From contig JBBSXO010000002.1 of assembly GCA_038045705.1 (NCBI GenBank), forward strand, positions 11,091 through 75,090: a stretch of DNA of 64,000 nucleotides. Direction: 5' to 3'. A program made the translations under genes and the position numbers. The stretch comes from Nanobdellota archaeon (GTDB taxonomy: Archaea; Nanobdellota; Nanobdellia; Pacearchaeales; GW2011-AR1). This document shows, piece by piece, positions 51,278-64,000 of this stretch (position 1 is its first letter; each line of letters starts with the position of its first letter). Under the pieces are notes generated by a model. The model was given only the letters and a program-made list of their open reading frames with translations, had not been told where the DNA came from and made no database searches.

Positions 51278-51298
51278 GTATAAATGCTCTTCTTATAA

Positions 51299-51399
51299 TG
51301 GCCCCACGCAGACTCGAACTGCGAATTACTCGGCTTTTAGTGTCTTCATTTCTTCCAACAGATGTAAACGAGTCGTTTGAACCCTTAGACTATGGGGCC
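51299..51399 (-). tRNA. intron-containing tRNA, most likely tRNA-Val (anticodon UAC), with a 29-nt intron at 37/38
   Basis: Hand fold: acceptor GGCCCCA/TGGGGCC plus A, D arm GTCT..AAAC (one mismatch), anticodon stem ACTCG/CGAGT, loop TTTACA|intron|C, T arm CGCAG-TTCGAGT-CTGCG. The 101 nt minus 29 nt gives a 72-nt mature tRNA. Confidence 0.7.
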
Positions 51400-51403
51400 A
51401 TAC

Positions 51404-52351: not shown

Positions 52352-52453
52352 TTCTTTTAATAATGCTCTTTTATTTATATTTATTCATACTACTAGACTA
52401 ATATTATGATTAGAATAAAGCTTTATAAAACCTTTCTGTCCACTAACAAATAA

Positions 52454-52557
52454 GCGCGGGTAGTATAGTGGTTAGTATACGACGTTGCCACTTTTTCCCT
52501 TTAGTAAGAAGAGAAAGCAAAGACGTTGTGGCCCGGGTTCAATTCCCGGCCCGCGCA
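52454..52557 (+). tRNA. tRNA-Gly (anticodon GCC) with a 32-nt intron at the canonical 37/38 position
   Basis: Exon 1 is exactly 37 nt (GCGCGGG TA GTAT AGTGGTTA GTAT A CGACG TTGCCA). The intron is CTTTTTCCCTTTAGTAAGAAGAGAAAGCAAAG. Exon 2 is A CGTTG TGGC CCGGG TTCAATT CCCGG CCCGCGC A. Conserved T8, A14, G18G19, A21 and T33 are all in place. Confidence 0.85.
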
Positions 52558-52561
52558 TACC
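52547..52561 (+). repeat. att-like core, copy 1 (3' end of tRNA-Gly): CGGCCCGCGCATACC
   Basis: An identical 15-mer recurs at 54018-54032 and its first 12 nt at 58854-58865, all in the same orientation. Confidence 0.8.
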
Positions 52562-52637
52562 TCCATCATGGCTCCTTTCATGTGAACTCGCCTTATTGTC
52601 CGAACCTTTCATTAAAAAAAATATAAACTCTTTTAAT

Positions 52638-53378
52638 CTAAACTTCTTTAGAAAGATTCCATAGAAAGTCAAATTGCTTTCTAAAAGTATTAAACACTTC
52701 TTCATTCTTGATTACCACCCCAAGAGGCTCTCCTGAATAGACTATTATAGCAACTTGATCCTCAAACAGCATAATCTCAGTTACCTGAATTAATTGTCGA
52801 GGCAGTTTCTTACGTTCGCTAAGAGCTTTAGTTATTCCAACTGTATTCTTAAAATCTGCATTAAAAAGGAGATGTTCTTTTATTTTACGATTTTTTCTTA
52901 ACTGATTAAAATGCGTCCAGTAGGTTTCGCCTAATATTTCTACAGAAGCGTTACTTACTCCAATTATCCAAAACTCTTTACTGGATAACATATCTTGCAA
53001 TATTTTCTTTACGCCTTGAATTCCTCTAAATAAGAATGTTTCCTGTTCAGTCTTACTAGTTGAAAGTATTGAATTGATCTCTGGGATAAGATTTGTTGCA
53101 GATTTTATTTCTTCTTCTAGATTCTTCTTTTTTGTTTCCAAAAAATCAATAATGCTTTCTGGTTTCTCGGCAATGAATTTTCTCTTTGTTCCTTCAACCA
53201 CATAAGAAACAAGCCCTTTATCAATCAGTTTTTCAAGATTATCATATATTATATTTCTATGAACCCCTACAGACTTTACTAATTCGGAAGCTGTAGCTTG
53301 TCCTTTCTTAAGTAGGCCAAAATACACCTTGGCTTCATTTTTATTCAACCCTAGTTTCTCTAAATCTGCAATGTGCAT
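52638..53378 (-). CDS. TrmB-family transcriptional regulator
   Basis: N-terminal wHTH LEKLGLNKNEAKVYFGLLKKGQATASELVKSVGVHRNIIYDNLEKLIDKGLV plus a TrmB-type C-terminal domain. A paralog lies at 54685-55422. Confidence 0.8.
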   Translation of the reverse strand: MHIADLEKLGLNKNEAKVYFGLLKKGQATASELVKSVGVHRNIIYDNLEKLIDKGLVSYVVEGTKRKFIAEKPESIIDFLETKKKNLEEEIKSATNLIPEINSILSTSKTEQETFLFRGIQGVKKILQDMLSSKEFWIIGVSNASVEILGETYWTHFNQLRKNRKIKEHLLFNADFKNTVGITKALSERKKLPRQLIQVTEIMLFEDQVAIIVYSGEPLGVVIKNEEVFNTFRKQFDFLWNLSKEV

Positions 53379-53490
53379 ATCTTTAGATTAATTATTTCTA
53401 TTTAAATCTATCTTATGCTGTCACAACTTATTGCAACATTCTATTAAATAGCCTTGTTTTTCAAACTACTTTATAGGGATAATAAGAACA

Positions 53491-53985
53491 ATGGAAAACA
53501 AAGATAACTCGGAATTTGAATTTGGAGAAAGCAAACATAGATGGAATGATTGGTTTCCATTAGCTAGCGAACTTCATTCGACCTTTGTTCATTTTAAAGG
53601 CCATTCTTTGGTAGTAGGGGAAGCAAAAGATTTGATTAGAAAATGGATTTCAGAACCACGATATTCAGAAAGTAGAACACCACTTTGGAGTATAATCACA
53701 AGATCTTATTTGAGAGATTATGGAATTGACTTGCAAACAATAACAAAAGTTGATTTTGAAAATAAACTTGGAGATTTAGTTAGAAGAGGTCTGAAGTTTG
53801 AAGTTGTTAAAAGTCTAGATGATTTAGCTGTTGAGGTAAATAGATCTACAAAAGATGCAGTAGATGGAAAAGGACCATTTGAGTGGAGAAAATATGCTGA
53901 AGCTTGTAAGATAGCAGGACACTTAATATATGGACCTAATGCAGAAGTATTTGCAGATAAGATAGTAATTCCTGAACAGTTTTAG
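53491..53985 (+). CDS. hypothetical protein
   Basis: 164 aa, divergent from the TrmB-like gene. Its composition (W, R, G, H-rich) is atypical for this genome. Confidence 0.45.
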   Translation: MENKDNSEFEFGESKHRWNDWFPLASELHSTFVHFKGHSLVVGEAKDLIRKWISEPRYSESRTPLWSIITRSYLRDYGIDLQTITKVDFENKLGDLVRRGLKFEVVKSLDDLAVEVNRSTKDAVDGKGPFEWRKYAEACKIAGHLIYGPNAEVFADKIVIPEQF

Positions 53986-54017
53986 TTCCCATCAGGATGC
54001 GCGAAGTGTATTGAACA

Positions 54018-54032
54018 CGGCCCGCGCATACC
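54018..54032 (+). repeat. att-like core, copy 2: CGGCCCGCGCATACC, embedded in the alternating inverted repeats ATGCGCG...CGCGCAT...ATGCGC
   Basis: Exact 15-nt match to the tRNA-Gly 3' end, GC-rich in an AT-rich background. The neighbouring CATGCGCACCC (54049-54059) is the reverse complement of GGTGCGCATG seen at 60359 and 63280. Confidence 0.8.
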
Positions 54033-54072
54033 CCTCTTCGTATCCTTTCATGCGCACCCAATTAATCCACAG

Positions 54073-54630
54073 TTATTGCTCTGGAGAAACATAATGATTT
54101 GGGTGCACTGCTGGTAGTGTTTCAAGATGTGCTTTCTCATCTGCACTTAAACATGCGTATTGAGCAAAACGCTCGATATAACCTTCTCTTTTTGTCTCCA
54201 ATGTCAAAACACTTCTGCGTAATTTAGGGTAAGGTGGATCAGTAGAAATTAATTTCGCAATAGTTCTAAAACTCACTTTAAGAGCCATAGCTAATTCTCT
54301 ATTTCTTGGTCTTACCTGTTTAGCAAAATCCCTAATTGCTCCGAATACATCAAGATATTTATTTTGATCATATTTAAAGCCAGAACGTGTAATTTTACCT
54401 CTTAAAGCCCTTTCTCTATCAATCTGGCTGGCAGGTAAAATATGCGCTTCTCCATTTTGTAAAGAAGTTAAGATCTGTTCCAAATCCCCTACTAACATAT
54501 TTGCATCTCTACTTGACTTGGTACCCCTTATACGTTCCACTAAGGCTTCTGTTATTCTTTTTGGATAAAATTCAGAAACATATCTTAGATAGTGTTCTTT
54601 TGCATGTTCCCAAGCTTGATCGTTTGCCAT
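54073..54630 (-). CDS. hypothetical protein (possible HTH)
   Basis: 185 aa, divergent from the second TrmB-like gene. RNRELAMALKVSFRTIAKLIS looks HTH-like. Confidence 0.45.
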   Translation of the reverse strand: MANDQAWEHAKEHYLRYVSEFYPKRITEALVERIRGTKSSRDANMLVGDLEQILTSLQNGEAHILPASQIDRERALRGKITRSGFKYDQNKYLDVFGAIRDFAKQVRPRNRELAMALKVSFRTIAKLISTDPPYPKLRRSVLTLETKREGYIERFAQYACLSADEKAHLETLPAVHPNHYVSPEQ

Positions 54631-54684
54631 AGAAAAAAGTCAAAAGAAAGGTATATAAAGATAATGTGTAACTAATAGTTACCT

Positions 54685-55422
54685 ATGATTGAACCTACTC
54701 AACTACGTGCATTAGGTATCTCAGAAAATGAAGCAGTTATACTTGCAGAGATCATACAAAATTCTTCATGTACTGCAACAGAACTCATTGAATCGACAGG
54801 GATGAACCGTAAAGTAGTCTATGATGGACTTAAGAGACTTGCACATAAAGCTCTTATTAATTCATTAAAAAGTGGCAAGGAGCGTAAATACTCTTTTGGA
54901 GGAGAACCAAGTATAAGAGCACTTATAGAAAGAGAAAAACAATCTATGGAAATAAGAGCAAAAGAAATGCTTGCAATAACTCAGGCAATAAAAAAAATTC
55001 AAGTTGAAGAACCAGTAGAAGTAACTACCTTTAGTGGTACGCAAGGGGTGAGGGTTACCCTAAACAAGCTATTAGAATTAAACTCAGATTATGTTGCATT
55101 TGGTGGCCCATTAGAATCAGAAGCAATAATGACTGAAACTTTTTGGCTTAATTTTCAGCAAAAACAAAAAGATATGAATATTAAAATAAAATTGCTTTTC
55201 AATAATTCTCTAAAGAAATGGATTGGAAAAATAGATAACTCTAATATAAATATTAAATTTCTAAAGGAAGTCGAACCTTTAGCAGAAACAATTATATGTA
55301 AAGATCATGTATTCCTTATTATATGGACAGCAAACCCATCAGGAACAATTATAATAAATAAAGCTCTAGCAAAATCATATACTCAAATTTTTGATATGTT
55401 ATGGGAACGTGCTTCAAAATAA
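54685..55422 (+). CDS. TrmB-family transcriptional regulator (second copy)
   Basis: LRALGISENEAVILAEIIQNSSCTATELIESTGMNRKVVYDGLKRLAHKALI. The length matches the first copy (245 versus 246 aa), as does the C-terminal FDMLWE versus FDFLWN. Confidence 0.75.
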   Translation: MIEPTQLRALGISENEAVILAEIIQNSSCTATELIESTGMNRKVVYDGLKRLAHKALINSLKSGKERKYSFGGEPSIRALIEREKQSMEIRAKEMLAITQAIKKIQVEEPVEVTTFSGTQGVRVTLNKLLELNSDYVAFGGPLESEAIMTETFWLNFQQKQKDMNIKIKLLFNNSLKKWIGKIDNSNINIKFLKEVEPLAETIICKDHVFLIIWTANPSGTIIINKALAKSYTQIFDMLWERASK

Positions 55423-55456
55423 ATAGCTCACTTAAATTCAAACACGGACCCAAATT

Positions 55457-55467
55457 AGTAAGAGCCA
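55457..55467 (+). repeat. 11-nt direct repeat AGTAAGAGCCA (copy 1), second copy at 57836-57846
   Basis: Exact match read in both GC-rich spacers flanking the four-gene block 55663-57771. An 11-mer match alone can occur by chance in 64 kb. Confidence 0.4.
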
Positions 55468-55662
55468 TGGAGTTACAGAGAGCCTAATTTTGGGCTGTTT
55501 CTCCCGCGTACGTAACGAATTCTAAATTATTTAATTGTGGGCTACAACCCTTGCCGCACTCTGGGCTCACTTGGCATTTTCATGGGATTTATTTCTTTTC
55601 TCTTAATATTTTTATTATATTAGATACATAAAGATTAAATAGACTCAATTTTCATATTTTTT

Positions 55663-56139
55663 ATGAAAAAAGCAAGATTACAAATGGGAGATTTGCCTTA
55701 CCCTCAATATATGGGTGAAGCACCAGATACTACCAATGATGGAAACATTAGATGGATAGGTGTTAAAGCATATGGGCTATCGGGTAAAGTAGAAGACTTC
55801 TTGTGGTGGAGAAATTTCAAAGTAGGCAACCTAAATGATGAAAGAGCAAGACATGAAGCAGCAGCATTTATAGCAAGATTAAAAATTGGGATGAATACTG
55901 ATTCAGCTTTTGGCCGTGCCTTAGATCTAAGTAATTGTGATCAAGCTACTGGAAGGGTTGCCGCATCTAATGAGCGTGGATTATATGGAGTATATGTTGA
56001 AGCAGAAAAGAGACCATTATTTAATTTTATGACTATGATGAATGGTCTTGAAACTGAAGAAGCATTTAGAAGAAAAGACTCTAAGGAATTTGAGAGAATT
56101 TACTTACAAGCAAAAACAGTTCTCCCTTATAGTAAATAA
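55663..56139 (+). CDS. hypothetical protein
   Basis: 158 aa, convergent with the macro-domain operon. No motif. Confidence 0.45.
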   Translation: MKKARLQMGDLPYPQYMGEAPDTTNDGNIRWIGVKAYGLSGKVEDFLWWRNFKVGNLNDERARHEAAAFIARLKIGMNTDSAFGRALDLSNCDQATGRVAASNERGLYGVYVEAEKRPLFNFMTMMNGLETEEAFRRKDSKEFERIYLQAKTVLPYSK

Positions 56140-56154
56140 TTATAATTTTGCTAA

Positions 56155-56838
56155 TCACTTAGACTTTTTATATGGAAGCTTCTTTGGGCCTTTTGGTTCT
56201 GGTTGAGCTTTTGTAAAATCTGGAATAATGAAGACTTCTCCTCTAACTTGACTTTGATCAGTATAAGTTACATCTCTACCAGATACTACACTGGCAACCA
56301 AATTTAGTCTTCTATGGCCTAACTCTTTTCCTTCAACCCCAAAAACTTTGTCTCCTTCTGTTCCATGATATTCAACTGCAATTAATGTTCCAGGTAAAAA
56401 TGCCATAACACCATATGCTCCACCCTCTACTCCAACTTTTACATAGTCGGGAGTATTTTTATTTCCTCTTACAACTTGTAAATCTGTTACTTTTTTACCA
56501 TTTAGCATTCTCTCAGAAATCTCTCTAATTGGCGAACTACTATTGGTTCTGTGAACTTTTAATTTAGGATCTCTCTTAACTAAAGCGATTCCTAAACTGT
56601 CGCTTTCTTTTTGTTCAGTTCCAAAATAATGTCTTTCTTCCATCGAACCAATACATGTTCCTATGTAACCTGGTCTCTCAAACCTAAAAGTTAGTCTTGT
56701 TCCTTGACTTGTTTCAAAATTAGCCCAATGTTCTGTGTACCACGTTGGATGAAATGTTCTTACAGTTTCTTGTGTAACATCATGAGTAATTCTTTCTAAA
56801 TCGGATTTTTGAGCTAATCTATAATCTTCATTAGCCAT
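56155..56838 (-). CDS. hypothetical protein (third gene of the macro-domain operon)
   Basis: 227 aa. It starts 1 nt after the macro-domain gene stop. No motif recognised. Confidence 0.5.
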   Translation of the reverse strand: MANEDYRLAQKSDLERITHDVTQETVRTFHPTWYTEHWANFETSQGTRLTFRFERPGYIGTCIGSMEERHYFGTEQKESDSLGIALVKRDPKLKVHRTNSSSPIREISERMLNGKKVTDLQVVRGNKNTPDYVKVGVEGGAYGVMAFLPGTLIAVEYHGTEGDKVFGVEGKELGHRRLNLVASVVSGRDVTYTDQSQVRGEVFIIPDFTKAQPEPKGPKKLPYKKSK

Positions 56839-56839
56839 A

Positions 56840-57391
56840 TTAATTAGAAGATAATCCTGATCTTAATTTCATTGCTGTAGCAACATCACCATAAACTACA
56901 AATGTTAGATTATTCATTTTTGTTTTAGCACCGTATTGATCCATAAATCTTCCTATACCTGCTCCAAGCTTAGAAATTGCTTCTTGGGGAGTTTTTTCTA
57001 CTACTCCTGCCATTACACCCATTCTTATAGTTGGGATAAGGATTTTTCCATAATTTTGGCTGTGTGCAGCTTCAAGTCCAGCATAGACTACTTCATCTAG
57101 CGGACTTCTTAAATCATCTACTACAAATACTACATCTCTAAATCCAATTTTTCTATCAGGTCTAGCTCCACCTTTTGCAATTATTGTTTGTAAATTTTGT
57201 AAAGGCATAGCTTTTGAAGCTTGTGAATGATAATGATCTCCAGCTACTCTTTGTATAGCCCCATCAATTCCGCCAAACCACATACCACCAGAATTAATCG
57301 CAGTAATTAAAGCATCAGCTGGTATTTTAGTTATATCTCCATCCACAACATACAAACCAGTTTTACCGATTTTCTTTACCAACCCATCCAT
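56840..57391 (-). CDS. macro-domain protein (ADP-ribose binding/hydrolase fold)
   Basis: VVDGDITKIPADALITAINSGGMWFGGIDGAIQRVAG matches the macro-domain N-terminal signature (GDIT...DAIVNAAN..GGGVDGAI..AAG). Length 183 aa. Confidence 0.75.
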   Translation of the reverse strand: MDGLVKKIGKTGLYVVDGDITKIPADALITAINSGGMWFGGIDGAIQRVAGDHYHSQASKAMPLQNLQTIIAKGGARPDRKIGFRDVVFVVDDLRSPLDEVVYAGLEAAHSQNYGKILIPTIRMGVMAGVVEKTPQEAISKLGAGIGRFMDQYGAKTKMNNLTFVVYGDVATAMKLRSGLSSN

Positions 57392-57393
57392 AA

Positions 57394-57771
57394 TTACTTT
57401 TCTCCAACGATTACATCTTTCTTTTCAAAAGGCTGGAAGTTTCCTCTTCTTGTTTTTACAATTTTTTTCCAACCATTAGATCTCATATTGCTTTGTAAAA
57501 TATCACTATTTGGCACTTCTCTCTTAACATCATCAAGGCTCATAAGTTTCCCAAAATAATGCATTCCAGAACGATTTCTCGGTTCTCCAACAAGAATCTC
57601 TCCATCTTGAGCAACATATTCTTGTCTGTCAAAAAATGCATAACCAAATGCTTCTCTTGGTGTTTGAACTACTGATGGATCTCTTGCTTCAACTTCTTGA
57701 GCAGAACTTTCACTAAAGAAGCTTCCTAGATAAAGGAATTCTACATAATGCTTTAATGTTTCTTTTGCCAT
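57394..57771 (-). CDS. hypothetical protein (first gene of the macro-domain operon)
   Basis: 125 aa. It ends 2 nt before the macro-domain gene start. No motif recognised. Confidence 0.5.
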   Translation of the reverse strand: MAKETLKHYVEFLYLGSFFSESSAQEVEARDPSVVQTPREAFGYAFFDRQEYVAQDGEILVGEPRNRSGMHYFGKLMSLDDVKREVPNSDILQSNMRSNGWKKIVKTRRGNFQPFEKKDVIVGEK

Positions 57772-57835
57772 AATTTTAAAGCTAAATTTAAGTATTTAAA
57801 TGTTTGTATGGTTGTTCTTATTTAGTAACAACTTA

Positions 57836-57846
57836 AGTAAGAGCCA
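57836..57846 (+). repeat. 11-nt direct repeat AGTAAGAGCCA (copy 2)
   Basis: See 55457-55467. Confidence 0.4.
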
Positions 57847-57875
57847 AAGAGAGCCCTTTGAGGCGCTCTGGGAGA

Positions 57876-58032
57876 CATAGAGATACAGAGACCTACTTTT
57901 TTCAATAAATCTCAAATTTAGCGTCGTAAACGCAATTCTCCACCCGCCGAGATCGGGTGGCTTATTCTAGCCATTTTTCTATGGCTTTTTCTGCTTCTGT
58001 TCTCTGGGGAGAAATATTTAAATATCTCAATT
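57876..58032 (+). repeat. noncoding element of about 160 nt, copy 1 (hairpin CCACCCG-n7-CGGGTGG, hairpin AGCCAT-n6-ATGGCT plus T5, then TATA-like TTTAAATATC)
   Basis: It aligns along its length with 60671-60832. The 56-nt core 57952-58007 versus 60746-60801 differs at only about 5 positions. Confidence 0.75.
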
Positions 58033-58046
58033 ACAATAGCATTACC

Positions 58047-58295
58047 ATGGTAATGGATACAATTCAAGTAAGATTAGGACATGGCTTGGTAAAAAAGATT
58101 GACGCACTAGTAGACACTGGCGTTTATTCTAGTAGATCAGATGTACTAAGAGATGCTGTAAGAAGGTTAGTGTTGGATAAACTAATAGGCTTAATTTCCG
58201 ATGAAGGAGATTCTGTTGTTCAAGCTAAGAATTTGAGAAAAAAGTTATCAAAAGAAAAATTTGATTTAAATGAGATAAATAAGTTAGCTGAATGA
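58047..58295 (+). CDS. ribbon-helix-helix (CopG/Arc-type) protein, probable antitoxin or regulator
   Basis: MVMDTIQVRLGHGLVKKIDALVDTGVYSSRSDVLRDAVRRLV is the canonical RHH strand plus two helices. Start chosen at the ATG at 58047, 26 nt from the TATA-like box; the GTG-start extension from 57957 runs through the repeat element. Confidence 0.65.
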   Translation: MVMDTIQVRLGHGLVKKIDALVDTGVYSSRSDVLRDAVRRLVLDKLIGLISDEGDSVVQAKNLRKKLSKEKFDLNEINKLAE

Positions 58296-58766
58296 CTCTT
58301 CTGGTTTTGAAACGTTTACATGTTTTTTTGCGAAAATGATTAAATCTTCATCGCGTGTAATTAATTGTAGATTCAGTCTTTTTGCTATTGCAATATGCAA
58401 GTAATCGTAAAAACTTAGAGTTTCATTTTCTTTCTCCCATTTCCTTGCTAAATCATAATCTCTAGGATCTGTTTTTATAATTTCAATGAAATCAGATTCT
58501 TTAAAAAATTGGTTAACTAACTGAAATCTCTCTTTGAGAGTATAATATAATTCTTTAAGAACAATTGTAGATATAACTATTTTCTCTTGTTTATCCTCAA
58601 TTTTTTCAATGAAATCTTTTGCAAGTTTCCAATATTGTACGCCACTTTTTGGATTAACTTCTTTCTTTAACAAATTTAACCAAATACATGTATCAAGATA
58701 GTATTTCTTTCCCACATAAGTTAAACATTTAATAATTATAAATAACTTTCTCTTTCGTCTCGACAA
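58284..58766 (-). CDS. PIN-domain (VapC-like) nuclease
   Basis: KKYYLDTCIW (first acidic residue), VLKELYY (Glu), FYDYLHIAIA (Asp) and LITRDEDL (Asp) give PIN-like spacing of acidic residues. The true start may be the GTG at 58715 rather than the TTG at 58766. Confidence 0.7.
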   Translation of the reverse strand: MSRRKRKLFIIIKCLTYVGKKYYLDTCIWLNLLKKEVNPKSGVQYWKLAKDFIEKIEDKQEKIVISTIVLKELYYTLKERFQLVNQFFKESDFIEIIKTDPRDYDLARKWEKENETLSFYDYLHIAIAKRLNLQLITRDEDLIIFAKKHVNVSKPEESFS

Positions 58767-58853
58767 GATATATAAATCCTAAGTGTCTTTAAGAATTAAC
58801 AAAATTAAGAACATACTCGATGCTCATCGGATTAGACAAAACTTCCTAGTGCA

Positions 58854-58865
58854 CGGCCCGCGCAT
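58854..58865 (+). repeat. att-like core, copy 3: CGGCCCGCGCAT followed by the inverted repeat GCGCAT-n9-ATGCGA
   Basis: 12-nt exact match to the tRNA-Gly 3' end. It shares CACGGCCCGCGCAT (14 nt) with copy 2. Confidence 0.7.
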
Positions 58866-59061
58866 GGTACCATTATGCGATTTCTAAGAGTAATAAATTG
58901 GCTGAAAAAGATAAGCTAGTTAAGATTAATTAAATGCTATTTTGCGCTATAAGTTACAAAATGTTTACATATAGCTACAAAATAGGTTTATTAATAATAG
59001 ATATCAATACTAAAATGTATTAAAACTTACAAAATATGTAAGAAATAATACCAAATAGCAA

Positions 59062-59070
59062 TATTTATAA
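59062..59070 (+). promoter_or_regulatory. TATA-box-like element upstream of the Fic gene
   Basis: TATTTATAA is centred about 27 nt upstream of the ATG at 59093. Confidence 0.45.
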
Positions 59071-59092
59071 ACTCTAAAACCTTAAGTATATT

Positions 59093-60334
59093 ATGGTAAC
59101 TAAGTATGATGCTTTTGAAATAATTTACAAAAATAGGGCATTGCTTAAACCGATTGAGGTAGTTAAGAAGCTCAATAAAGATGAAAGGGAATATCATATA
59201 ATTCATAGATACTTAAGAGAGTTAGCAAATGAAAATTTATTAGTCAAAAAGAAAGACGGATTTCAAGCAGAGATATCAGAAAAAACGGACCTCTTGTATA
59301 ATCTAATTCTTTATTGCATAAAAAATGGAATAAATTATAATCTTATTTTAGATAAAAACTTTGCGCAATTTATAAGCCAGTCTATACAAAGAGAAGAAAT
59401 TAGTTCTAAGAGCATTAAATTGAATCCTAGAACTATAAAAAAGTATGTCGAGATTTTAGACCGTTATGGTTTAATATTGATAATTTCTGAAAAACCATTA
59501 AGGGCTAAATTATTCTATAATGTCCTTCTTAACAATTTGCTTGTTTATTTTGGGTATAAACACTCTGTAGTTAATGAAAACTCCAGAAATTACATTAGGG
59601 AAATAAAAAAAGAGTTAGAATCCTTTCGAAAGCTAAAGAAGAAAGATGAAGCAAAATATAGAAAGATAGTGAACGAATTTGAGATATCCTTTATTTATCA
59701 TAGCTTATCTCTAGAGGGAAACCCAATAACCCTTCCAGATACGATTAAAATATTAAAAGAAAATTTAGTTCCTGCGAATCTAAAAATAAAGGACGTTGAT
59801 GAAGTTAAAAATTATCAAGAAGCTATGTTTCAAATGCTAAAAGACACAAATGAAAGAAAGCCACTAAGCATACAATCAGTCTTAGATTATCATAGAATTG
59901 CAATGAGACATCAAACATACCTTGCAGGAAGCATTAGAACAATTTCTGTACATATCAAAGGCAATCCAGATTTTAAGACAACCAATGCTGAAAAAATTAA
60001 AGAAGAACTGGATAAGTTATTTGATAGATACAACGAATTCATCAAAAGAAAAAATGTGCCTTTAGAAGAAATATTAAAATTCGCCGTTTATTTTCACAAT
60101 GAGTTTCAGCACATTCATCCATTCATAGATGGAAACAGCAGAACAACCAGATTAATCACATTTCACTTGCTTCAATCCTTAGACATTCCCATTATTGATA
60201 TTCCATTTGGCTTGCTTGATGAATATTTAAGCTCCACGAAAGGCTCAAAGAACAGAGAGGATAGTAAGTTATATCAAAATCTTCAAAAGATAATTTTGTT
60301 TAATCTCAAGAAGATAAATAAGAGATTAGCTTGA
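59093..60334 (+). CDS. Fic-domain protein with an N-terminal wHTH-like region
   Basis: Fic motif HPFIDGNSRTTRL (HxFx[D/E]GNxRxxR) near the C-terminus. 413 aa. Confidence 0.85.
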   Translation: MVTKYDAFEIIYKNRALLKPIEVVKKLNKDEREYHIIHRYLRELANENLLVKKKDGFQAEISEKTDLLYNLILYCIKNGINYNLILDKNFAQFISQSIQREEISSKSIKLNPRTIKKYVEILDRYGLILIISEKPLRAKLFYNVLLNNLLVYFGYKHSVVNENSRNYIREIKKELESFRKLKKKDEAKYRKIVNEFEISFIYHSLSLEGNPITLPDTIKILKENLVPANLKIKDVDEVKNYQEAMFQMLKDTNERKPLSIQSVLDYHRIAMRHQTYLAGSIRTISVHIKGNPDFKTTNAEKIKEELDKLFDRYNEFIKRKNVPLEEILKFAVYFHNEFQHIHPFIDGNSRTTRLITFHLLQSLDIPIIDIPFGLLDEYLSSTKGSKNREDSKLYQNLQKIILFNLKKINKRLA

Positions 60335-60430
60335 CTAAAAGGTTCGTGACAAGTGGTTGGTGCGCATGCAATTCATCCAATCCACGCCTTACCATAAAGT
60401 ATATAAAGTATTAATTTCTTACTTTCTTAC

Positions 60431-60637
60431 ATGGAAATAACTAAAGTCAGTTCAAAAGGTCAAGTAGTAATACCTTCAAAAATAAGGGAAATGTTGGGTC
60501 TAGTGGAAGGCTCAACTGTAGCTTTAGAAGTAATTAATGATATGGCTGTAATAAAAAAGTTAGATGTGGATCTAGTAAGTCAGTTTAAGAACAGCTTGTC
60601 TGATGTTAAGGCTGGTAGAATAAGAAGAGTAGCTTAA
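60431..60637 (+). CDS. AbrB/SpoVT (MazE-like) antitoxin-type protein with no adjacent toxin
   Basis: MEITKVSSKGQVVIPSKIREMLGLVEGSTV is the swapped-hairpin AbrB/SpoVT motif. 68 aa. Confidence 0.75.
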   Translation: MEITKVSSKGQVVIPSKIREMLGLVEGSTVALEVINDMAVIKKLDVDLVSQFKNSLSDVKAGRIRRVA

Positions 60638-60670
60638 TTATTTGATAATCTCTTTTTCATATTATGTATA

Positions 60671-60832
60671 CATATATACAGAGACTGACTCTTTTTAGCA
60701 AAATCGTGAATTTAACGTCGACATTCCATTTCCCCACCAGCGAAAATCGGGTGGCTTATTCCAGCCATTTTTCTATAGCTTTTTCTGCTATGTTCTCTTG
60801 GTGCCCATTAACGATAACTTTAAATATCAATT
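60671..60832 (+). repeat. noncoding element of about 160 nt, copy 2
   Basis: See 57876-58032. It ends in the TATA-like CTTTAAATATC centred about 28 nt upstream of the ATG at 60851. Confidence 0.75.
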
Positions 60833-60850
60833 GATACTAGAAAATATCAG

Positions 60851-61381
60851 ATGAAAATAAAAGATATCAAACAAGCAATTAAGGAGTATTTCTTTGTTAA
60901 TCCTGCTTCTAAGCTTAGAGTCAGAGAAATTGAAAGAACATTAAAACTTTCTCTGCCTTCTGTTATTAGGTACTGCAAAGAATTAGAGCAAGATGGTATT
61001 TTAACAATAAACAAAACTGGAAGTGTTATTTTCTATACTGCAACCAGAAACGAAACCTACTTTTTAGAAAAAAAGCTTTACAATATCAAGCAATTATATG
61101 ATTCTGGGTTAATAGGTTATCTTAAAGTAGAATTAAGCAACCCAGTAATTGTTCTTTTCGGCTCTTATGCAAAAGGAGAAGACACAGAAAATAGCGATGT
61201 TGATTTGTATATAGAAACGCCATCAAAAAAACAAATAAATATTGAAAAATTCAGTAAATTATTACATCGAAAAATCCAATTATTTCAGAATAAAAATCTA
61301 AAAGAAATGACAAACCCGCACCTAGCAAATAATATTATAAACGGTATAACTCTAAATAACCATATTGAGGTCTTCAAATGA
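60851..61381 (+). CDS. wHTH plus minimal nucleotidyltransferase (MNT-type antitoxin)
   Basis: LFGSYAKGEDTENSDVDLYI is the GSxxxGxxxxxSDxD NTase motif. The N-terminus is wHTH-like (REIERTLKLSLPSVIRYCKELEQDGIL). Confidence 0.8.
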   Translation: MKIKDIKQAIKEYFFVNPASKLRVREIERTLKLSLPSVIRYCKELEQDGILTINKTGSVIFYTATRNETYFLEKKLYNIKQLYDSGLIGYLKVELSNPVIVLFGSYAKGEDTENSDVDLYIETPSKKQINIEKFSKLLHRKIQLFQNKNLKEMTNPHLANNIINGITLNNHIEVFK

Positions 61382-61779
61382 AAGAAACAAACTGGAATGA
61401 TTGTTTAATAAATAAAACAGCAAAAAGCATAACTCCTGACATAAACCGAGCAAAGTCACTTATAGAAACTGCAAAAGAAAGAATAAGTCTTATCAAAGAA
61501 ATAAATCAAAAGAACTGCAATTTTGTATTTGAAGATTATTACACATCTTTATTGGAGCTTTTGCAAGCAATAACTTTCAAAAAAGGATTTAATATCATAA
61601 ACCATATATGCTTAGGTTTTTATCTAAGAGATATCCTAAAAAGAGAAGATTTATACTTTCTATTTGATGACCTAAGATTTAAGAGAAACTCTCTCACTTA
61701 TTACGGAAGTAGAATGGATTATGAAACAGCAAAGCAAGCCATAGAAAAATGTAAAAGGCTGATTAATGAGTTGGAATGA
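61378..61779 (+). CDS. HEPN-domain protein (toxin partner of MNT)
   Basis: Overlaps the MNT gene by 4 nt. It is all-helical at 133 aa, with LRFKRNSLTYYG resembling the HEPN Rx4-6H/Y region. Confidence 0.6.
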   Translation: MKETNWNDCLINKTAKSITPDINRAKSLIETAKERISLIKEINQKNCNFVFEDYYTSLLELLQAITFKKGFNIINHICLGFYLRDILKREDLYFLFDDLRFKRNSLTYYGSRMDYETAKQAIEKCKRLINELE

Positions 61780-62044
61780 AATCTATAATAATAGAAGCCC
61801 AGATTGAAGATTTCGCTTAGATATATGTTATGAAATTGTATTAGGGTCTACAAGTGTGAAAAACCCTCTGGAAATACCACAGGACCCTAATGCCTCTGCC
61901 GCACATACCACAAGATATTTAAGCTCTGAATGGGTCTAATTTTTAATAAACTCCATGGAATCTTCACGGACCCCATGATTTTTTTAATTATATTAATTTA
62001 CTAACCAAAAGTCTTATATAACCTTAATTCCTCATAATATTAAC

Positions 62045-62160
62045 ATAATCCCGGGTGATCTTACGGTTGCCCGATGTTTCTTAACCGCAAGATATTTAAT
62101 AGGTCGAAGGTCTTGATTTATTATCTACCCACTAGGTTTGCACTGCAACCCTAGTTTTTT
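62045..62160 (+). ncRNA. candidate small RNA of about 115 nt (two hairpins, oligo-T end)
   Basis: TATA-like TTATATAA at 62014-62021. Hairpin 1 is ATCTTACGGTT-n14-AACCGCAAGAT (62058-62093, 10 of 11 bp). Hairpin 2 spans 62132-62154 (10-bp stem, one mismatch, 3-nt loop) and is followed by TTTTTTGTTTT. There is no ORF. It lies in a 400-nt noncoding spacer. Confidence 0.35.
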
Positions 62161-62178
62161 GTTTTATTATAGCCGTGA

Positions 62179-62598
62179 TTGAATACTATGAATGAATCTA
62201 AAGAGGAATATTTTGTTTTAAGCGAAAGACTTGAAATAGTTAGATGGGCCATTAGTGGAGATTGTGATGACATTGATTGTGATAGATATCTTTACAAGGA
62301 TCTTTTAAGGAAAAAGTATAAGCCTGTTTTAGAACATAATTTTTCTTGTATTAACAAACTGAAAAGAGAGGAAAAAGCTCTTTTAAGAATCCTTAGTGAT
62401 AAAAGGTATAAAAAGTCCCGTTATGAAACCTGTCAGGTCTGTAAAAACTACGCTGATAAGTTAGATGAAAAAAATGAAATTGTTTGTTTTGCTAAAGAAC
62501 TAGGTGATAGAAAAGGTTCAGAAATAAAAACCTTTTTTGTACATAAAAGATGTTACAAGAAAGTTAAATCTCCTAAAGGGTGGAATAAACTAATATAA
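62179..62598 (+). CDS. Cys-rich hypothetical protein
   Basis: TTG-start ORF; the likely ATG start is at 62188 (MNESKEE). CxxC pairs (CQVC, and C...C near the C-terminus) suggest zinc binding. Confidence 0.4.
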   Translation: MNTMNESKEEYFVLSERLEIVRWAISGDCDDIDCDRYLYKDLLRKKYKPVLEHNFSCINKLKREEKALLRILSDKRYKKSRYETCQVCKNYADKLDEKNEIVCFAKELGDRKGSEIKTFFVHKRCYKKVKSPKGWNKLI

Positions 62599-62641
62599 AA
62601 AGGTTTAAATAATATCAATTGATAATATTATCATTAGATAC

Positions 62642-62935
62642 ATGGAAACTCAAGAATTAAAGAAAATGAAATTTAACTTAAATGAAATTATAACGAGAAG
62701 TCCTAGACTAGACACCGTAGTTATGGTAGAACATTTTATCAAAGAGTATAGTGGAGAATATAAAAAAACAGAATTGTTCAATAAACTCCCTAAAAAGATG
62801 ATGTGGGGAACATTTAATGTAATTTTACAATATTTATGGGATAACAATAAAATAGGGATAGATAAAAATGATTATGTTGTTTATATCTGGAATCCTGAAT
62901 TAGTAGAGAAACTTAAAAATAGAAAAGCATATTAA
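62642..62935 (+). CDS. hypothetical small protein (possible wHTH or antitoxin)
   Basis: 97 aa, immediately upstream (5-nt gap) of the RelE-like ORF. Confidence 0.4.
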   Translation: METQELKKMKFNLNEIITRSPRLDTVVMVEHFIKEYSGEYKKTELFNKLPKKMMWGTFNVILQYLWDNNKIGIDKNDYVVYIWNPELVEKLKNRKAY

Positions 62936-62940
62936 ACTTT

Positions 62941-63276
62941 ATGTTGGTTAAACCTGCTAAAGAGCTTAAATTTATAGAGCAAGATATAGAAGATAATTTT
63001 CTTTCTTTACCAAATAATAGTCTTATAAAAAAAGGAATTCAAAGAGCTATTACCAAGCTAAAAGAAAATGTTTTTGCAGGAGAAAATATTCGTAAAGAGC
63101 GAATACCTAAAGAATATATTCAAAAATATTTGATAGATAATTTATGGTGGTATCCACTGCCTGATGCATGGAGATTAGTTTATTCTATTGCAACAAGTAA
63201 ATCAGAAGTATTGGTTACAATTATTGAATATTTTGATCATAAAAATTATGCTAAAAGATTTGGTTACAAATCTTAA
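62941..63276 (+). CDS. RelE/ParE-superfamily-like toxin (tentative)
   Basis: 111 aa. WRLVYSIATSKSEVLVTIIEYFDHKNY resembles the RelE core (yRiiY.i.....v.i..i..H..Y). Confidence 0.45.
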   Translation: MLVKPAKELKFIEQDIEDNFLSLPNNSLIKKGIQRAITKLKENVFAGENIRKERIPKEYIQKYLIDNLWWYPLPDAWRLVYSIATSKSEVLVTIIEYFDHKNYAKRFGYKS

Positions 63277-63279
63277 TTA

Positions 63280-63349
63280 GGTGCGCATGAAAGAATATCC
63301 GTAGGACCCAGTACGGCCCTTGAGCAACTTTCACGTGATATGGGGCAAT
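63280..63349 (+). repeat. spacer element related, in inverted orientation, to the att-like region at 53990-54060
   Basis: GGTGCGCATGAAAGAATATCCGTAGGACCCAGTACGGCCC...CTTTCACGTG compares with the reverse complement of 54059-53990, GGGTGCGCATGAAAGGATACGAAGAGGGGTATGCGCGGGCCGTG.... It has the internal inverted repeat CATGAAAG/CTTTCACG. Confidence 0.5.
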
Positions 63350-63352
63350 TAA

Positions 63353-63691
63353 TTAGAAACCTTCTTCACCAATACTTCTTAAAATTCTTTTGATTTCGTC
63401 AATTACTTTTTGCTGATCTTTCTTATTAGACATTCTTACAAATTTGATTAATAAATCATTTAATTCTTCTTTTTGAAGGACCTTTATTTTGAAACCATTG
63501 GTTATGAAATAGAATCTGTAGTTGTCACGCTTGAGCTCTTTAATCACCATTCCACTTACTTGGCCTACAACTTGGCCTTTATGTGGATTTTGTTCTAATT
63601 CTCTAAATGACTCGAATATTTCTGTTGATTGTTTCTTAAAAATTTTATATATTTCTTCTTCTAGTTTTTTTGTAACTATTACTTTTGCCAT
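63353..63691 (-). CDS. RelE/HigB (Gp49)-like toxin, paralog of 11271-11615
   Basis: The two proteins align end to end (for example GQVSGMVIKELKRDNYRFYFITNGFKIKV...KFVRMSNKKDQQKVIDEIKRIL versus GQVGGIVIKELKYKNFRFYFITDGYKLKV...RFVRMSNKKDQQETINEIKKIL). Confidence 0.6.
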   Translation of the reverse strand: MAKVIVTKKLEEEIYKIFKKQSTEIFESFRELEQNPHKGQVVGQVSGMVIKELKRDNYRFYFITNGFKIKVLQKEELNDLLIKFVRMSNKKDQQKVIDEIKRILRSIGEEGF

Positions 63692-63885
63692 CTTTTTTTA
63701 GAATTCTCTATGGCTTCATCTATCGAAATTGTATCTTCTTCATCCATTAATAAGTCTTGTAATTGTCTTTTCTTAGCACTAGCTATTAATTTTGCAAGTA
63801 TTTGAGAATAAGTTTCTCCTTTATTTCCAAATTCTTTTATTTGATCTTTTATTTCATTACTTAGGGCAATTGTTGTATTTTCCAT
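63679..63885 (-). CDS. putative RHH-like antitoxin, paralog of 11597-11809
   Basis: MENTTIALSNEIKDQIKEFGNKGETYSQILAKLI versus MDITTIQLSKEMKDKLSSFGTKNESYEEILKRIY. Overlaps the toxin gene by 13 nt. Confidence 0.55.
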   Translation of the reverse strand: MENTTIALSNEIKDQIKEFGNKGETYSQILAKLIASAKKRQLQDLLMDEEDTISIDEAIENSKKRWQK

Positions 63886-64000
63886 ATTATAATCGTTATA
63901 ATAATTATAATGGCTATAATATATAAATCTTCGTATTTCAATATAGTTTGTGTTGGTGAATGTGTATCAAGTTCGGACAGTACATAATTAATCTAATTTA

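What the first reader, a model, noticed from the sequence alone, without database searches (positions are those of the whole stretch)
52454..64000. tRNA-Gly-anchored array of small gene cassettes separated by a family of GC-rich, palindromic att-like spacers, with no recombinase in view
**Direct repeats of the tRNA end.** The last 15 nt region of tRNA-Gly, CGGCCCGCGCATACC (52547-52561), recurs exactly at 54018-54032. Its first 12 nt recur at 58854-58865. All three copies are in direct orientation. Copies 2 and 3 share CACGGCCCGCGCAT. These are GC-rich strings in an AT-rich genome, so chance recurrence is very unlikely.

**Degenerate relatives further on:**
- TGCCGCACATACC at about 61897-61909
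- CAC(A)GGACCC motifs at 55443, 61878 and 61964
- GGTGCGCATG at 60359 and 63280, with its reverse complement at 54049-54059
- a spacer of about 70 nt at 63280-63349 that aligns with the reverse complement of 53990-54059

**Spacer structure.** Most spacers contain inverted repeats: ATGCGCG/CGCGCAT/ATGCGC, GTGGTTGG/CCAATCCAC, ATTAGGGTC/GACCCTAAT, and ACCCAAATTAG/CTAATTTTGGG.

**Cassette content.** Between the spacers lie cassettes of 1-4 genes dominated by regulators and toxin-antitoxin or defence-type functions: TrmB x2, the macro-domain operon, RHH/PIN, Fic, an orphan AbrB, MNT-HEPN, a RelE-like trio and RHH-RelE/Gp49.

**Composition.** Proteins in 53.4-58 kb are visibly richer in W, R, G, A and H than the core genome, which suggests foreign origin.

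**Interpretation.** The organisation resembles serial site-specific integration at a tRNA gene, or an integron-like cassette platform. I see no integrase, IntI or transposase within the window, which ends inside the array. I also see no canonical attC R'/R'' cores.
Basis: partly seen in the sequence, partly recalled or inferred. Interest (0 to 1): 0.85.

Follow-up and report, generated by a model that had tools for sequence, protein, structure and literature searches.

The report
Decayed mobile-element array at tRNA-Gly
Downstream of a glycine tRNA gene in a tiny groundwater archaeon lies a 10.8-kb pile-up of worn-down mobile DNA pieces that inserted one after another at the tRNA's end; this kind of genomic island is well known, though it has rarely been documented in this group of archaea.

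Summary
The core observation holds. An intron-containing tRNA-Gly(GCC) lies at 52454-52557. Its 3' end recurs in direct orientation at 54018 (15/15), 58854 (12/15), 61896 (12/15 with a gap) and 63313 (half site); 0.03 matches are expected by chance. The flanks of these copies are the actual tRNA-Gly trailers of related DPANN genomes (43/43 nt; 88-92%), so they are displaced tRNA ends.

Relatives show an empty site, occupied sites with different cargo, and in 7 loci a ~390-aa tyrosine integrase within the fetched flank (directly after the tRNA in 5 of them). There is no integrase between the tRNA and the thermosome gene about 5 kb past the window end.

Not supported:
- Integron-type attC cores, significant palindromy, and a single spacer family. 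There are two unrelated similarity groups.
- The "RelE" labels.
- An array running off the window. It ends near 63.33 kb.

In the window, no module's two arms match as inverted repeats, whereas three elements in relatives have matched arms. The modules are therefore remnants or mosaics.

Verdict: a decayed tandem array of tRNA-Gly-targeted integrative elements that have lost their integrase and retain toxin-antitoxin, defence and regulator genes. It is a new member of a known kind and of modest interest.

The parts
52454..52557 (+). tRNA-Gly(GCC) with a 34-nt intron. Its last 11 nt plus the next base (GGCCCGCGCA|T) form the recombination core (attB/attL).
   Evidence: Rfam RF00005, 53.1 bits. 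The same 3' half is found in 72 fetched tRNA-Gly loci of related DPANN archaea, about 65 of them unique.
52547..52610 (+). Junction 1 (attL): core CGGCCCGCGCATACC plus the right arm (...TCCTTTCATGTGAACTCGCCTTATTGTCCGAACCTTT).
   Evidence: The arm is homologous to the trailers of L186/L198 and to the arm at junction 2.
52562..54017 (.). Module 1 (1.47 kb): TrmB-like regulator (52638-53378, -) and a 164-aa unknown (53491-53985, +).
   Evidence: Pfam TrmB E=3.6e-17. The module is bounded by exact 15-nt direct repeats. A TrmB-like gene beside the core recurs in L249, L208 and L197.
53986..54072 (+). Junction 2: left arm, core 54018-54032 (15/15) and right arm (ACCCCTCTTCGTATCCTTTCATGCGCACCCA).
   Evidence: Core plus right arm (54018-54060) is 43/43 identical to tRNA-Gly plus trailer in L199. 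The left arm (53986-54025) is 87.5% identical to the distal site of L198. Contigs of two other assemblies end at 54025 and 54072.
54033..58853 (.). Module 2 (4.8 kb, composite): 185-aa unknown (-), TrmB-like (54685-55422, +), 158-aa unknown (+), a 227-aa/macro-domain/125-aa operon (56155-57771, -), and RHH (58047-58295, +) with PIN (58284-58715, -).
   Evidence: Pfam and NCBIfam macro hits. Amino-acid composition deviates from the core genome. The internal spacer 55423-55662 holds partial core-like remnants, and its 55480-55521 lies at +71..+112 after the tRNA in L199.
58809..58892 (+). Junction 3: left arm, core 58854-58865 (12/15) and right arm.
   Evidence: The left flank (58753-58865) is 83% identical to the distal att flank of the L208 element and is the inverse of the L182-type trailer. 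The core plus right arm (58854-58892) is 82-85% identical to tRNA-Gly plus trailer of L226/L243; L243 has an integrase at +101.
58866..61895 (.). Module 3 (3.0 kb): Fic (59093-60334, +), a partial arm remnant at 60335-60430 (GGTGCGCATG box), AbrB/MazE (60431-60637, +), MNT (60851-61381, +) and its 133-aa partner (61378-61779, +).
   Evidence: Pfam. PADLOC gives PDC-S04/SoFic and PDC-M05A/B. The 60.36-kb spacer is only marginally related to the other junctions (z 3.6-5.7).
61878..62100 (+). Junction 4: degenerate core 61896-61909 (CTGCCGCACATACC) followed by a trailer-type arm.
   Evidence: 61907-61996 and 62029-62100 are 88-92% identical to the first ~180 nt after tRNA-Gly in L213/L230 and L193/L231/L236. 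CACAAGATATTTAAG follows the core as in L193.
61910..63276 (+). Module 4 (1.4 kb): three small unknown ORFs (139, 97 and 111 aa).
   Evidence: ORFs. No hits in Pfam, PHROGs, NCBIfam or PADLOC, so the 'RelE-like' label is unsupported.
63277..63352 (+). Junction 5, the terminal, half-decayed att site. It has a left arm with a GGTGCGCATGAAAG box and GGACCCAGT, then the half core ACGGCCC (63313-63319).
   Evidence: The left arm matches the left arms of extra cores in L193 and L249. ACGGCCC occurs only 3 times in the window, at junctions 2, 3 and 5, all on the + strand. The left arm is a 25-nt, 92% inverted match to the junction 2 right arm.
63353..64000 (-). Start of the conserved chromosomal flank, not part of the array: a 112-aa ORF plus a 68-aa RHH (DUF7557). 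Beyond the window come 66/97-aa and 98-aa ORFs, GGDEF, a hydrolase, DUF1653 and the thermosome gene.
   Evidence: Homologs (44-86% aa identity) lie beside GGDEF, upstream of the tRNA-Val/tRNA-Gly pair, in L226, L242, L185 and others. The extension comes from L001 and L020.

Best explanation
The region 52558 to about 63330 is a decayed tandem array of integrative genetic elements that inserted one after another into the 3' end of tRNA-Gly(GCC) in a Nanoarchaeota (DPANN) genome.

MECHANISM
- A tyrosine integrase of a large DPANN family recombines a site on a circular element with the tRNA end. The core is GGCCCGCGCAT, i.e. the 3' strand of the acceptor stem, the discriminator base and one more base.
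- The element brings its own copy of the core, so the tRNA is regenerated. The old end, with its old trailer, is pushed outward.
- Each new insertion at the regenerated tRNA moves older junctions further away, where they decay.
- Deletions and recombination between neighbouring elements then removed the integrase genes and fused or truncated the elements. What remains is addiction, defence and regulator genes: VapBC-like, Fic, AbrB, MNT-HEPN-like, a macro operon and TrmB-like regulators.

SHOWN: the tRNA; the direct core copies and their significance; identity of their flanks with real tRNA-Gly trailers elsewhere; empty and otherwise-occupied sites in relatives; the integrase family next to tRNA-Gly in relatives; absence of any integrase in this locus; unmatched arms in the window.

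INFERRED: that this integrase family made these junctions; the order of events; the loss of integrases by deletion.
For: 1. The core copies are far beyond chance: 3 matches against 0.03 expected. All are direct and downstream of the tRNA. Their identity to the tRNA end falls with distance: 15/15, 12/15, 12/15 with a gap, then 9/15.
2. Junction flanks are true tRNA-Gly trailers in other genomes:
   - Junction 2 core plus right arm equals tRNA plus trailer of L199, 43/43 nt.
   - Junction 3 equals tRNA plus trailer of L226/L243 at 82-85%.
   - Junction 4 equals the trailers of L213/L230/L193 at 88-92%.
3. Left arms of junctions 2, 3 and 5 match the left arms of distal att sites in L198, L208, L193 and L249.
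4. The same architecture recurs. Extra direct cores lie downstream of tRNA-Gly in L179 (3), L193, L208 and L226. In L198, L208 and L226 an element's two arms are matched inverted repeats (z = 19, 8, 7).
5. The site is variable. In L185 the conserved flank starts 6 nt after the tRNA (empty site). Other relatives carry 1.2-14.7+ kb of unrelated cargo.
6. A 383-405-aa ORF starts 88-149 nt after tRNA-Gly in L182, L186, L194, L210 and L243, and lies distally in L223 and L242. Evidence that it is a tyrosine integrase:
   - PHROG integrase families, E=7e-20 and 2e-14.
   - Best PDB profile hit is XerA (4a8e), aligned across boxes I and II.
   - At least 2324 related clusters, many with PF00589 and named tyrosine recombinase/integrase in Pacearchaeota or Nanoarchaeota.
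7. The window's modules have unmatched arms (all z<1) and at least two compositional compartments, as expected for remnants of several different elements.
8. Tandem integration and loss of the integrase after integration are documented for archaeal mobile elements (PMC8371274).
Against: - No integrase gene or recognisable fragment exists between the tRNA and the thermosome gene. The link to the integrase family is therefore by analogy with relatives.
- The exact identity segment is short, 12-15 nt.
- Several modules are small (1.4-1.5 kb here; 463-776 nt in L179 and L193). Intact mini-elements mobilised in trans could produce that as well as decay could.
- No excised circle or empty-site read from the same population was seen. 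The contig breaks at 52561, 54025 and 54072 are only suggestive, and L208 from the same sample belongs to another organism.
- The spacers at 55.4 and 60.36 kb are only weakly related to the junction family.
Confidence: 0.8

Rival explanations
1. A functional analogue of an integron. Small modules without an integrase, each carrying a core flanked by arms, are captured and released at the tRNA-Gly end by a tyrosine integrase encoded elsewhere in the genome or on a co-resident element. The tRNA end would play the role of attI.
For: - Very small modules of one or a few genes lie between cores: 741 nt (NYN gene) in L193/L231/L236, 776 and 463 nt in L179, and 1.4-1.5 kb in the window.
- Module 4 of the window and the NYN module of L193 share arm sequences on both sides but carry different genes.
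- A network of shared short arms with different cargo exists across genomes.
- L179's small modules have weakly matched arms (z 2.2-2.6).
- Mobilisation in trans of integrase-less elements at tRNA genes is known in bacteria (CIMEs/IMEs, PMC5704250, listed).
Against: - The window's own modules have unmatched arms (z<1), multiple genes and mixed orientation.
- Core identity decays with distance from the tRNA. That fits passive ageing rather than exchangeable cassettes.
- The integrase is part of the inserted DNA, not a fixed platform. L186 has it, while the closely related L198 shares -207..+71 but lacks it.
- No circular forms were observed.
Confidence: 0.13
2. A true integron or CALIN (a cluster of attC sites lacking an integrase), of the kind reported in archaeal MAGs.
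For: Integrons and CALINs have been reported in archaeal MAGs (PMC9668308). The array is rich in toxin-antitoxin genes and lacks an integrase, as CALINs do.
Against: - No spacer contains an R''(RYYYAAC)...R'(GTTRRRY) pair. The island density of such pairs equals that of the core genome: 0.16 vs 0.19 per kb.
- The spacers do not fold better than shuffles as single strands.
- The repeats are copies of a tRNA 3' end, which attC sites are not.
- Gene orientation is mixed and the modules hold several genes.
- The relatives' integrase scores 18-20 bits against a cut-off of 265 for the integron-integrase model.
Confidence: 0.02
3. SSV-type 'gene capture'. In this model the elements used a partitioning integrase whose gene contains attP and is split on integration, so the elements became trapped and the integrase fragments have since eroded.
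For: On the minus strand the right arms of junctions 1, 2 and 5 read ATGAAAG... into the core, which resembles the start of an Int(N). Gene capture at tRNA genes is the classic archaeal precedent (She et al. 2001, cited in PMC8371274).
Against: - The short minus-strand ORFs across the cores are not conserved at the protein level and stop after 5-26 codons (reading).
- The integrase found at this tRNA in relatives is intact and lies beside the att site, not across it.
- tblastn finds no integrase fragment in the locus.
Confidence: 0.03
4. There is no mobile DNA: the repeats are chance matches or local duplications of the tRNA end in a stable locus.
For: The exact repeats are short (12-15 nt).
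Against: - Expected chance matches are 0.03.
- The flanks match tRNA trailers of other genomes over 40-180 nt.
- The locus content differs completely among relatives.
Confidence: 0.02

Closest known systems
Tandem genomic islands or integrative elements at tRNA genes, made by tyrosine integrases (as catalogued by Islander, PMC4383910; tandem integration in archaea reviewed in PMC8371274)
   Same: Integration at the 3' end of a tRNA gene with regeneration of the tRNA. Displaced tRNA-end fragments mark the island ends. Several elements sit in tandem at one tRNA. The integrase lies directly beside the tRNA in intact relatives.
   Different: All integrases have been lost here. The exact identity segment is short (12-15 nt). 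The host is a DPANN archaeon. The integrase family is divergent: Pfam PF00589 did not score the three members tested. The modules are strongly eroded and mosaic.
'Gene capture' by SSV-type partitioning integrases in Sulfolobales and Thermococcales (She et al. 2001; 'suicidal integrases', PMC7253208)
   Same: Archaeal elements integrated at tRNA genes become trapped and decay, leaving captured genes bounded by direct repeats of the tRNA end.
   Different: In relatives of this genome the integrase gene is intact and adjacent to the att site rather than split by it. No Int(N) or Int(C) fragments are detectable.
Integrons and CALINs, including those reported in Archaea (PMC9668308)
   Same: An array of small gene modules separated by recombination-site-like spacers. 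Toxin-antitoxin genes are abundant. No integrase lies beside the array.
   Different: There is no attC sequence or structure and no IntI. The sites derive from a tRNA end. Orientation is mixed and the modules hold several genes. Site identity decays with distance from the anchor.
Accretion of integrase-less cis-mobilisable elements (CIMEs) and IMEs at tRNA genes in streptococci (PMC5704250)
   Same: Site-specific accretion gives composite tandem arrays in which some units lack their own integrase and are bounded only by att sites.
   Different: That system is bacterial and tied to conjugation. Mobilisation in trans is not shown here, and the window's units do not have matched ends.

Membership tests
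tRNA-targeted integrative elements / genomic islands (tyrosine integrase), tandem array | The insertion lies at the 3' end of a tRNA gene and the tRNA remains intact | tested here: met
   Full-length tRNA-Gly(GCC), Rfam 53.1 bits, with the array starting right after it.
tRNA-targeted integrative elements / genomic islands (tyrosine integrase), tandem array | Direct repeats of the tRNA 3' end bound the inserted DNA | tested here: met
   15/15 at 54018, 12/15 at 58854, 12/15 with a gap at 61896, and a half core at 63313. All are direct. 0.03 matches are expected by chance.
tRNA-targeted integrative elements / genomic islands (tyrosine integrase), tandem array | Displaced junctions carry sequences that are genuine tRNA trailers or element arms elsewhere | tested here: met
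   Junction 2 matches the L199 trailer 43/43. Junction 3 matches L226/L243 at 82-85%. Junction 4 matches L213/L193 at 88-92%. The left arms match L198, L208, L193 and L249.
tRNA-targeted integrative elements / genomic islands (tyrosine integrase), tandem array | The element encodes a tyrosine (or serine) integrase | tested here: not met
   None between 52.5 kb and the thermosome gene at about 67.3-69 kb. The feature is met in relatives at the same tRNA. The window's units are therefore filed as remnants, not as intact elements.
tRNA-targeted integrative elements / genomic islands (tyrosine integrase), tandem array | Empty or differently occupied sites exist in related genomes | tested here: met
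   In L185 the conserved flank starts 6 nt after the tRNA. L195, L236, L213, L208 and L243 carry 1.2 to more than 14.7 kb of unrelated cargo.
tRNA-targeted integrative elements / genomic islands (tyrosine integrase), tandem array | Excision to a circular form and reintegration | not testable with these tools
Only contig ends at 52561, 54025 and 54072 hint at heterogeneity.
Integron / CALIN | IntI: PF00589 plus the IntI-specific additional domain, next to attI | tested here: not met
   There is no recombinase in the locus. The relatives' integrase scores 18-20 bits against TIGR02249, whose cut-off is 265. Criteria taken from PMC9668308.
Integron / CALIN | attC sites with R''/R' cores and the conserved single-strand fold | tested here: not met
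   No RYYYAAC...GTTRRRY pair lies in any spacer. Folding z-scores run from -1.9 to +1.6. The IntegronFinder covariance model itself was not available.
Integron / CALIN | Mostly single-ORF cassettes in one orientation | tested here: not met
   Modules hold 2-8 genes on both strands.
SSV-type (partitioning) integrase elements | The integrase gene is split into Int(N) and Int(C) at the two att junctions | tested here: not met
   No integrase-like fragments by tblastn. The ORFs crossing the cores are short and not conserved. The related integrases are intact beside the tRNA.

The most novel reading that the evidence does not exclude
In DPANN archaea the 3' end of tRNA-Gly, and of other tRNAs such as tRNA-Asp, may act as a docking site for a pool of minimal modules that lack an integrase. 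Each module would be one to a few genes plus a 12-nt core with short arms. Integrases of the large DPANN tyrosine-recombinase family would insert, excise and shuffle these modules in trans. That would be a cassette-exchange system working like an integron but built from tRNA-derived sites. The window would then show an old, partly fossilised array of such modules.
Probability: 0.13. Interest if true: 0.7.

Novelty: new member of a known kind. Interest (0 to 1): 0.35.

Why it matters
DPANN archaea have very small genomes, and their mobile elements are poorly charted; the 2021 review of archaeal tyrosine recombinases does not mention them. This locus and its 72 fetched relatives (about 65 unique) show three things. 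tRNA-Gly is a recurrent integration hotspot in Pacearchaeota, Woesearchaeota and Nanoarchaeota. A large, divergent tyrosine integrase family is associated with it. Toxin-antitoxin, defence and regulator genes, and in relatives metabolic and conjugation-like genes, enter these reduced genomes this way. For annotation, the extra tRNA-end copies are useful markers of island borders. The finding is not a new kind of system.

Tried and rejected
- ARAGORN did not find the tRNA-Gly or the tRNA-Val, both of which contain introns; Rfam did.
- Two IMG/VR scans, with the 15-mer core and with the CTTTCATGCGCACC box, returned only chance hits. The 35 core-scan loci were checked and all lie in GC-rich phage contigs with no tRNA context; the box-scan hits were not inspected.
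- Pfam did not recognise the relatives' integrase, and a single-sequence PDB search gave nothing. PHROGs, a three-sequence profile and the large homolog set settled it.
- tblastn with those integrases found no remnant in the window or its extension.
- Attempts to reach the far end of the 25,960-bp Hainich contig through window genes did not return that contig. The extension came from L001 and L020 instead.
- The idea that the right arms encode an Int(N) start of a split integrase was considered and dropped, because the ORFs are neither conserved nor of consistent length.
- The idea that each junction is a palindrome, or that each window module has matched inverted-repeat ends, failed the shuffle test.
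- L208, from the same sample, was tested as an alternative occupant of the same site in the same population and rejected. Its tRNA-Gly has no intron, so it belongs to another organism.
- No Rfam family matches the junction spacers or the 57.9/60.7-kb repeat.

Full report
**What is there**

The window comes from a low-GC (~32%) archaeon. The exact proteins occur in Hainich aquifer groundwater metagenomes and in NCBI MAG GCA_964357645.1, and NCBI labels one of them 'Nanoarchaeota archaeon'. Rfam finds a tRNA at 52454-52557 (+) with a 34-nt intron at the canonical position and anticodon GCC. ARAGORN misses it. So the tRNA-Gly anchor is real.

**The repeats**

- The 15-mer CGGCCCGCGCATACC, which is the last 11 nt of the tRNA plus 4 nt, is exact at 52547 and 54018 and matches 12/15 at 58854. 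All three are direct. With up to 3 mismatches, 0.03 matches are expected in 64 kb, and none of 100 shuffles reached 3.
- Copies 2 and 3 share CACGGCCCGCGCAT.
- ACGGCCC occurs only three times in the whole window: at copy 2, at copy 3 and at 63313, always on the + strand.

**Are the spacers one family?**

No. I compared all 15 intergenic spacers of 52.5-67.4 kb in both orientations against dinucleotide shuffles. Two unrelated groups stand out.
- Group A is related to the tRNA end: 52.55, 54.0 and 58.85 kb are direct; 63.3 kb has z about 10; 60.36 kb is marginal.
- Group B is a ~120-nt repeat at 57880-58000 and 60670-60795 (z=35, with a 44-nt core at 95%). It has nothing to do with the tRNA.

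Both groups are absent from the other 52 kb of the window. The spacers do not fold better than shuffles as single strands (z from -1.9 to +1.6).

**Extent of the locus**

Other assemblies extend the sequence about 5 kb past the window end. After the 112-aa/68-aa pair come 66/97-aa and 98-aa ORFs, a GGDEF protein, a membrane protein, a hydrolase, DUF1653 and then the thermosome gene. None of these is a recombinase.

In related genomes the homologs of these genes lie together on the other side of the tRNA-Val/tRNA-Gly pair. GGDEF is 68-86% identical. The 112-aa/RHH pair is 54/44% identical in L226 and L242. The 66/97-aa pair is 75/62% identical in L185. These genes are therefore conserved flank, and the array proper is 52558 to about 63330 (10.8 kb).

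**Comparative evidence**

A scan of one genome per GTDB species for the tRNA's T-arm plus acceptor strand gave 22 tRNA-Gly loci in Pacearchaeota, Woesearchaeota and Nanoarchaeota MAGs. The same scan of metagenome contigs gave 50 more. Some are the same contig fetched twice, leaving about 65 unique loci. Five results matter.

1. The junction flanks in the window are the real tRNA-Gly trailers of other genomes.
   - Junction 2 (54018-60) is 43/43 identical to tRNA plus trailer in L199.
   - Junction 3 (58854-92) is 82-85% identical to tRNA plus trailer in L226 and L243.
   - The 61.9-62.1 kb spacer is 88-92% identical to the first ~180 nt after the tRNA in L213, L230, L193, L231 and L236. The degenerate core at 61896 is followed by CACAAGATATTTAAG, as in L193.
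2. The sequences to the left of the window's cores match the left sides of distal cores elsewhere: junction 2 with L198, junction 3 with L208, and junction 5 with L193 and L249.
3. The architecture recurs.
   - L179 has three extra direct cores, giving modules of 3463, 776 and 463 nt.
   - L193 has one, giving a 741-nt module with one NYN gene.
   - L208 has one at +4387 and L226 one at +2307.
   - The last core in L179 is followed by the trailer that follows the tRNA directly in L186 and L198.
4. The site is hypervariable. In L185 the conserved YdjM-side flank begins 6 nt after the tRNA, which is an empty site. Other loci carry 1.2 to more than 14.7 kb of unrelated genes.
5. In L182, L186, L194, L210 and L243 a 383-405-aa ORF starts 88-149 nt after the tRNA on the same strand. 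In L223 and L242 it lies distally on the other strand.

**The recombinase of the relatives**

Pfam did not score these ORFs. The other evidence agrees on a tyrosine integrase.
- They match the PHROG integrase families at E=7e-20 and 2e-14.
- A three-sequence profile finds archaeal XerA (4a8e) as the best PDB hit, aligned across the box I arginine and the box II H-x-x-R.
- A profile search returns at least 2324 related clusters. Many carry PF00589 and NCBI names such as 'tyrosine-type recombinase/integrase [Candidatus Pacearchaeota archaeon]'.
- Other members sit after a tRNA-Asp and beside T4SS-pilin and TraC/VirB4-like genes.
- The closely related L186 and L198 share -207..+71 around the tRNA, yet only L186 has the integrase. 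The integrase therefore belongs to the inserted DNA, not to a fixed platform.

**State of the window's modules**

In L198, L208 and L226 the arm right of the proximal core and the arm left of the distal core are inverted repeats of each other (z = 19, 8, 7). Those elements have intact ends. In the window no module passes this test (all z<1), and no junction is significantly palindromic. The only matched pair is the junction 2 right arm with the junction 5 left arm (25 nt, 92%).

Arms of at least four types occur in the window, judged by which relatives they match. Core identity to the tRNA falls outward: 15/15, 12/15, 12/15 with a gap, then 9/15. Proteins of 54.07-57.77 kb are rich in W/R/G/A/H and poor in K/I/N relative to 23 core ORFs. 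Those of 58.3-63.9 kb deviate the opposite way. tblastn with the relatives' integrases finds no fragment. Together this describes several different elements that have aged, lost their integrases and been fused or truncated.

**Integron reading**

By the criteria used for archaeal integrons (PMC9668308) the locus fails on every point tested.
- There is no IntI, and the relatives' integrase scores 18-20 bits against a cut-off of 265.
- No spacer contains an R''...R' pair, and the density of such pairs equals that of the core genome.
- There is no significant single-strand fold.
- The modules hold several genes in mixed orientation.

**What remains open**

The small modules (463-776 nt in relatives, 1.4-1.5 kb here) and the sharing of arms between modules with different cargo, such as window module 4 and the NYN module of L193, could reflect mini-elements without an integrase that are moved in trans. 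I could not test this.
- The rest of the MAG could not be searched.
- The one candidate alternative occupant from the same sample, L208, belongs to another organism.
- Contig ends at 52561, 54025 and 54072 in other assemblies hint at heterogeneity at junctions 1 and 2 but prove nothing.

**Known context**

Integration at tRNA genes with displaced tRNA fragments marking island ends is standard (Islander, PMC4383910). Tandem integration at one locus and loss of the integrase after integration are described for archaeal elements (PMC8371274). That review does not mention DPANN. This is therefore a new member of a known kind, in a little-studied lineage.

**Cargo labels**

- Confirmed: TrmB x2, macro, RHH+PIN, Fic (also PADLOC PDC-S04/SoFic), AbrB/MazE, MNT (PDC-M05A) with a partner matching PDC-M05B, and an RHH of family DUF7557.
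- Unsupported: the 'RelE-like trio' (139/97/111 aa) and 'RelE/Gp49' (112 aa).

Noticed in passing
window 51299-52351: A tRNA-Val(TAC) with a 30-nt intron lies at 51299-51399 (-), 42.9 bits. ARAGORN and the whole-window Rfam run both missed it. In relatives it sits ~60 nt from tRNA-Gly, head to head. In the window a 315-aa LAGLIDADG ORF (51404-52351, -) lies between the two tRNA genes, apparently an insertion specific to this lineage.
   Followed up: partly
window 47900-52557 and 63353-64000 (plus L001 1-3400); compare L185, L195, L226: The tRNA-Val/tRNA-Gly unit is inverted relative to its conserved flanks in the window, L186 and L198, compared with at least 7 other relatives. There the GGDEF side is upstream and the YdjM side downstream of tRNA-Gly. 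Whether an integrase acting on inverted att sites caused this is unknown.
   Followed up: partly
window 57880-58000 and 60670-60795: A ~120-nt direct repeat (44-nt core 95% identical, z=35), unrelated to the tRNA, lies upstream of the RHH gene and of the MNT gene. It contains two short hairpins followed by a T-run, the motif CATTTTTCTATGGCT (also at 61751 on the minus strand and, in part, at 54637), and a 17-codon minus-strand ORF of equal length in both copies. There is no Rfam match. A 28-nt piece (60663-60690) is identical in L242 at +597. Its function is unknown.
   Followed up: partly
window 56155-57771 (-): A three-gene operon of a 125-aa unknown, a 183-aa macro-domain protein and a 227-aa unknown, with amino-acid composition unlike the core genome. 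The two partners have no hits in Pfam, PHROGs, NCBIfam or PADLOC. It could be an ADP-ribosylation-based toxin-antitoxin or defence module, but this was not tested.
   Followed up: no
L001 1873-2454 (about 64950-65531 in extended window coordinates): A 193-aa GGDEF-domain protein is a conserved neighbour of the tRNA pair across many DPANN relatives (68-86% aa identity). GGDEF proteins are, to my knowledge, uncommon in archaea.
   Followed up: no
window 52638-53378; L208 +3516..+4247; L249 6799-7557; L197 +489..+1175; L183: A TrmB-like regulator gene repeatedly sits directly beside an att core at the edge of these elements. This suggests it may be a backbone gene of the elements, perhaps a regulator of maintenance or excision, rather than random cargo.
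   Followed up: partly
L253/L254 (integrase at 10001-11155 in L253); L243: Members of the same integrase family lie next to TrbC/T4SS-pilin and TraC/VirB4-like ATPase genes and type I restriction-modification genes. In L253 the integrase sits 86 nt after a tRNA-Asp(GTC). This looks like conjugative-type integrative elements in Pacearchaeota.
   Followed up: partly
L208 (+197..+3421 after the tRNA): A 4.4-kb element with matched inverted-repeat arms carries four genes. By eye they resemble archaeal shikimate-pathway enzymes and a methyltransferase, which would be metabolic rather than defence cargo. No HMM search was run on them.
   Followed up: no
L203, L225, L237, L245: In several metagenome loci a second exact or near-exact core lies only 72-156 nt after tRNA-Gly. 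The intervening trailer contains an inverted copy of the tRNA T-arm (CGGGAATTGAAC). The nature of these very short units is unclear.
   Followed up: no
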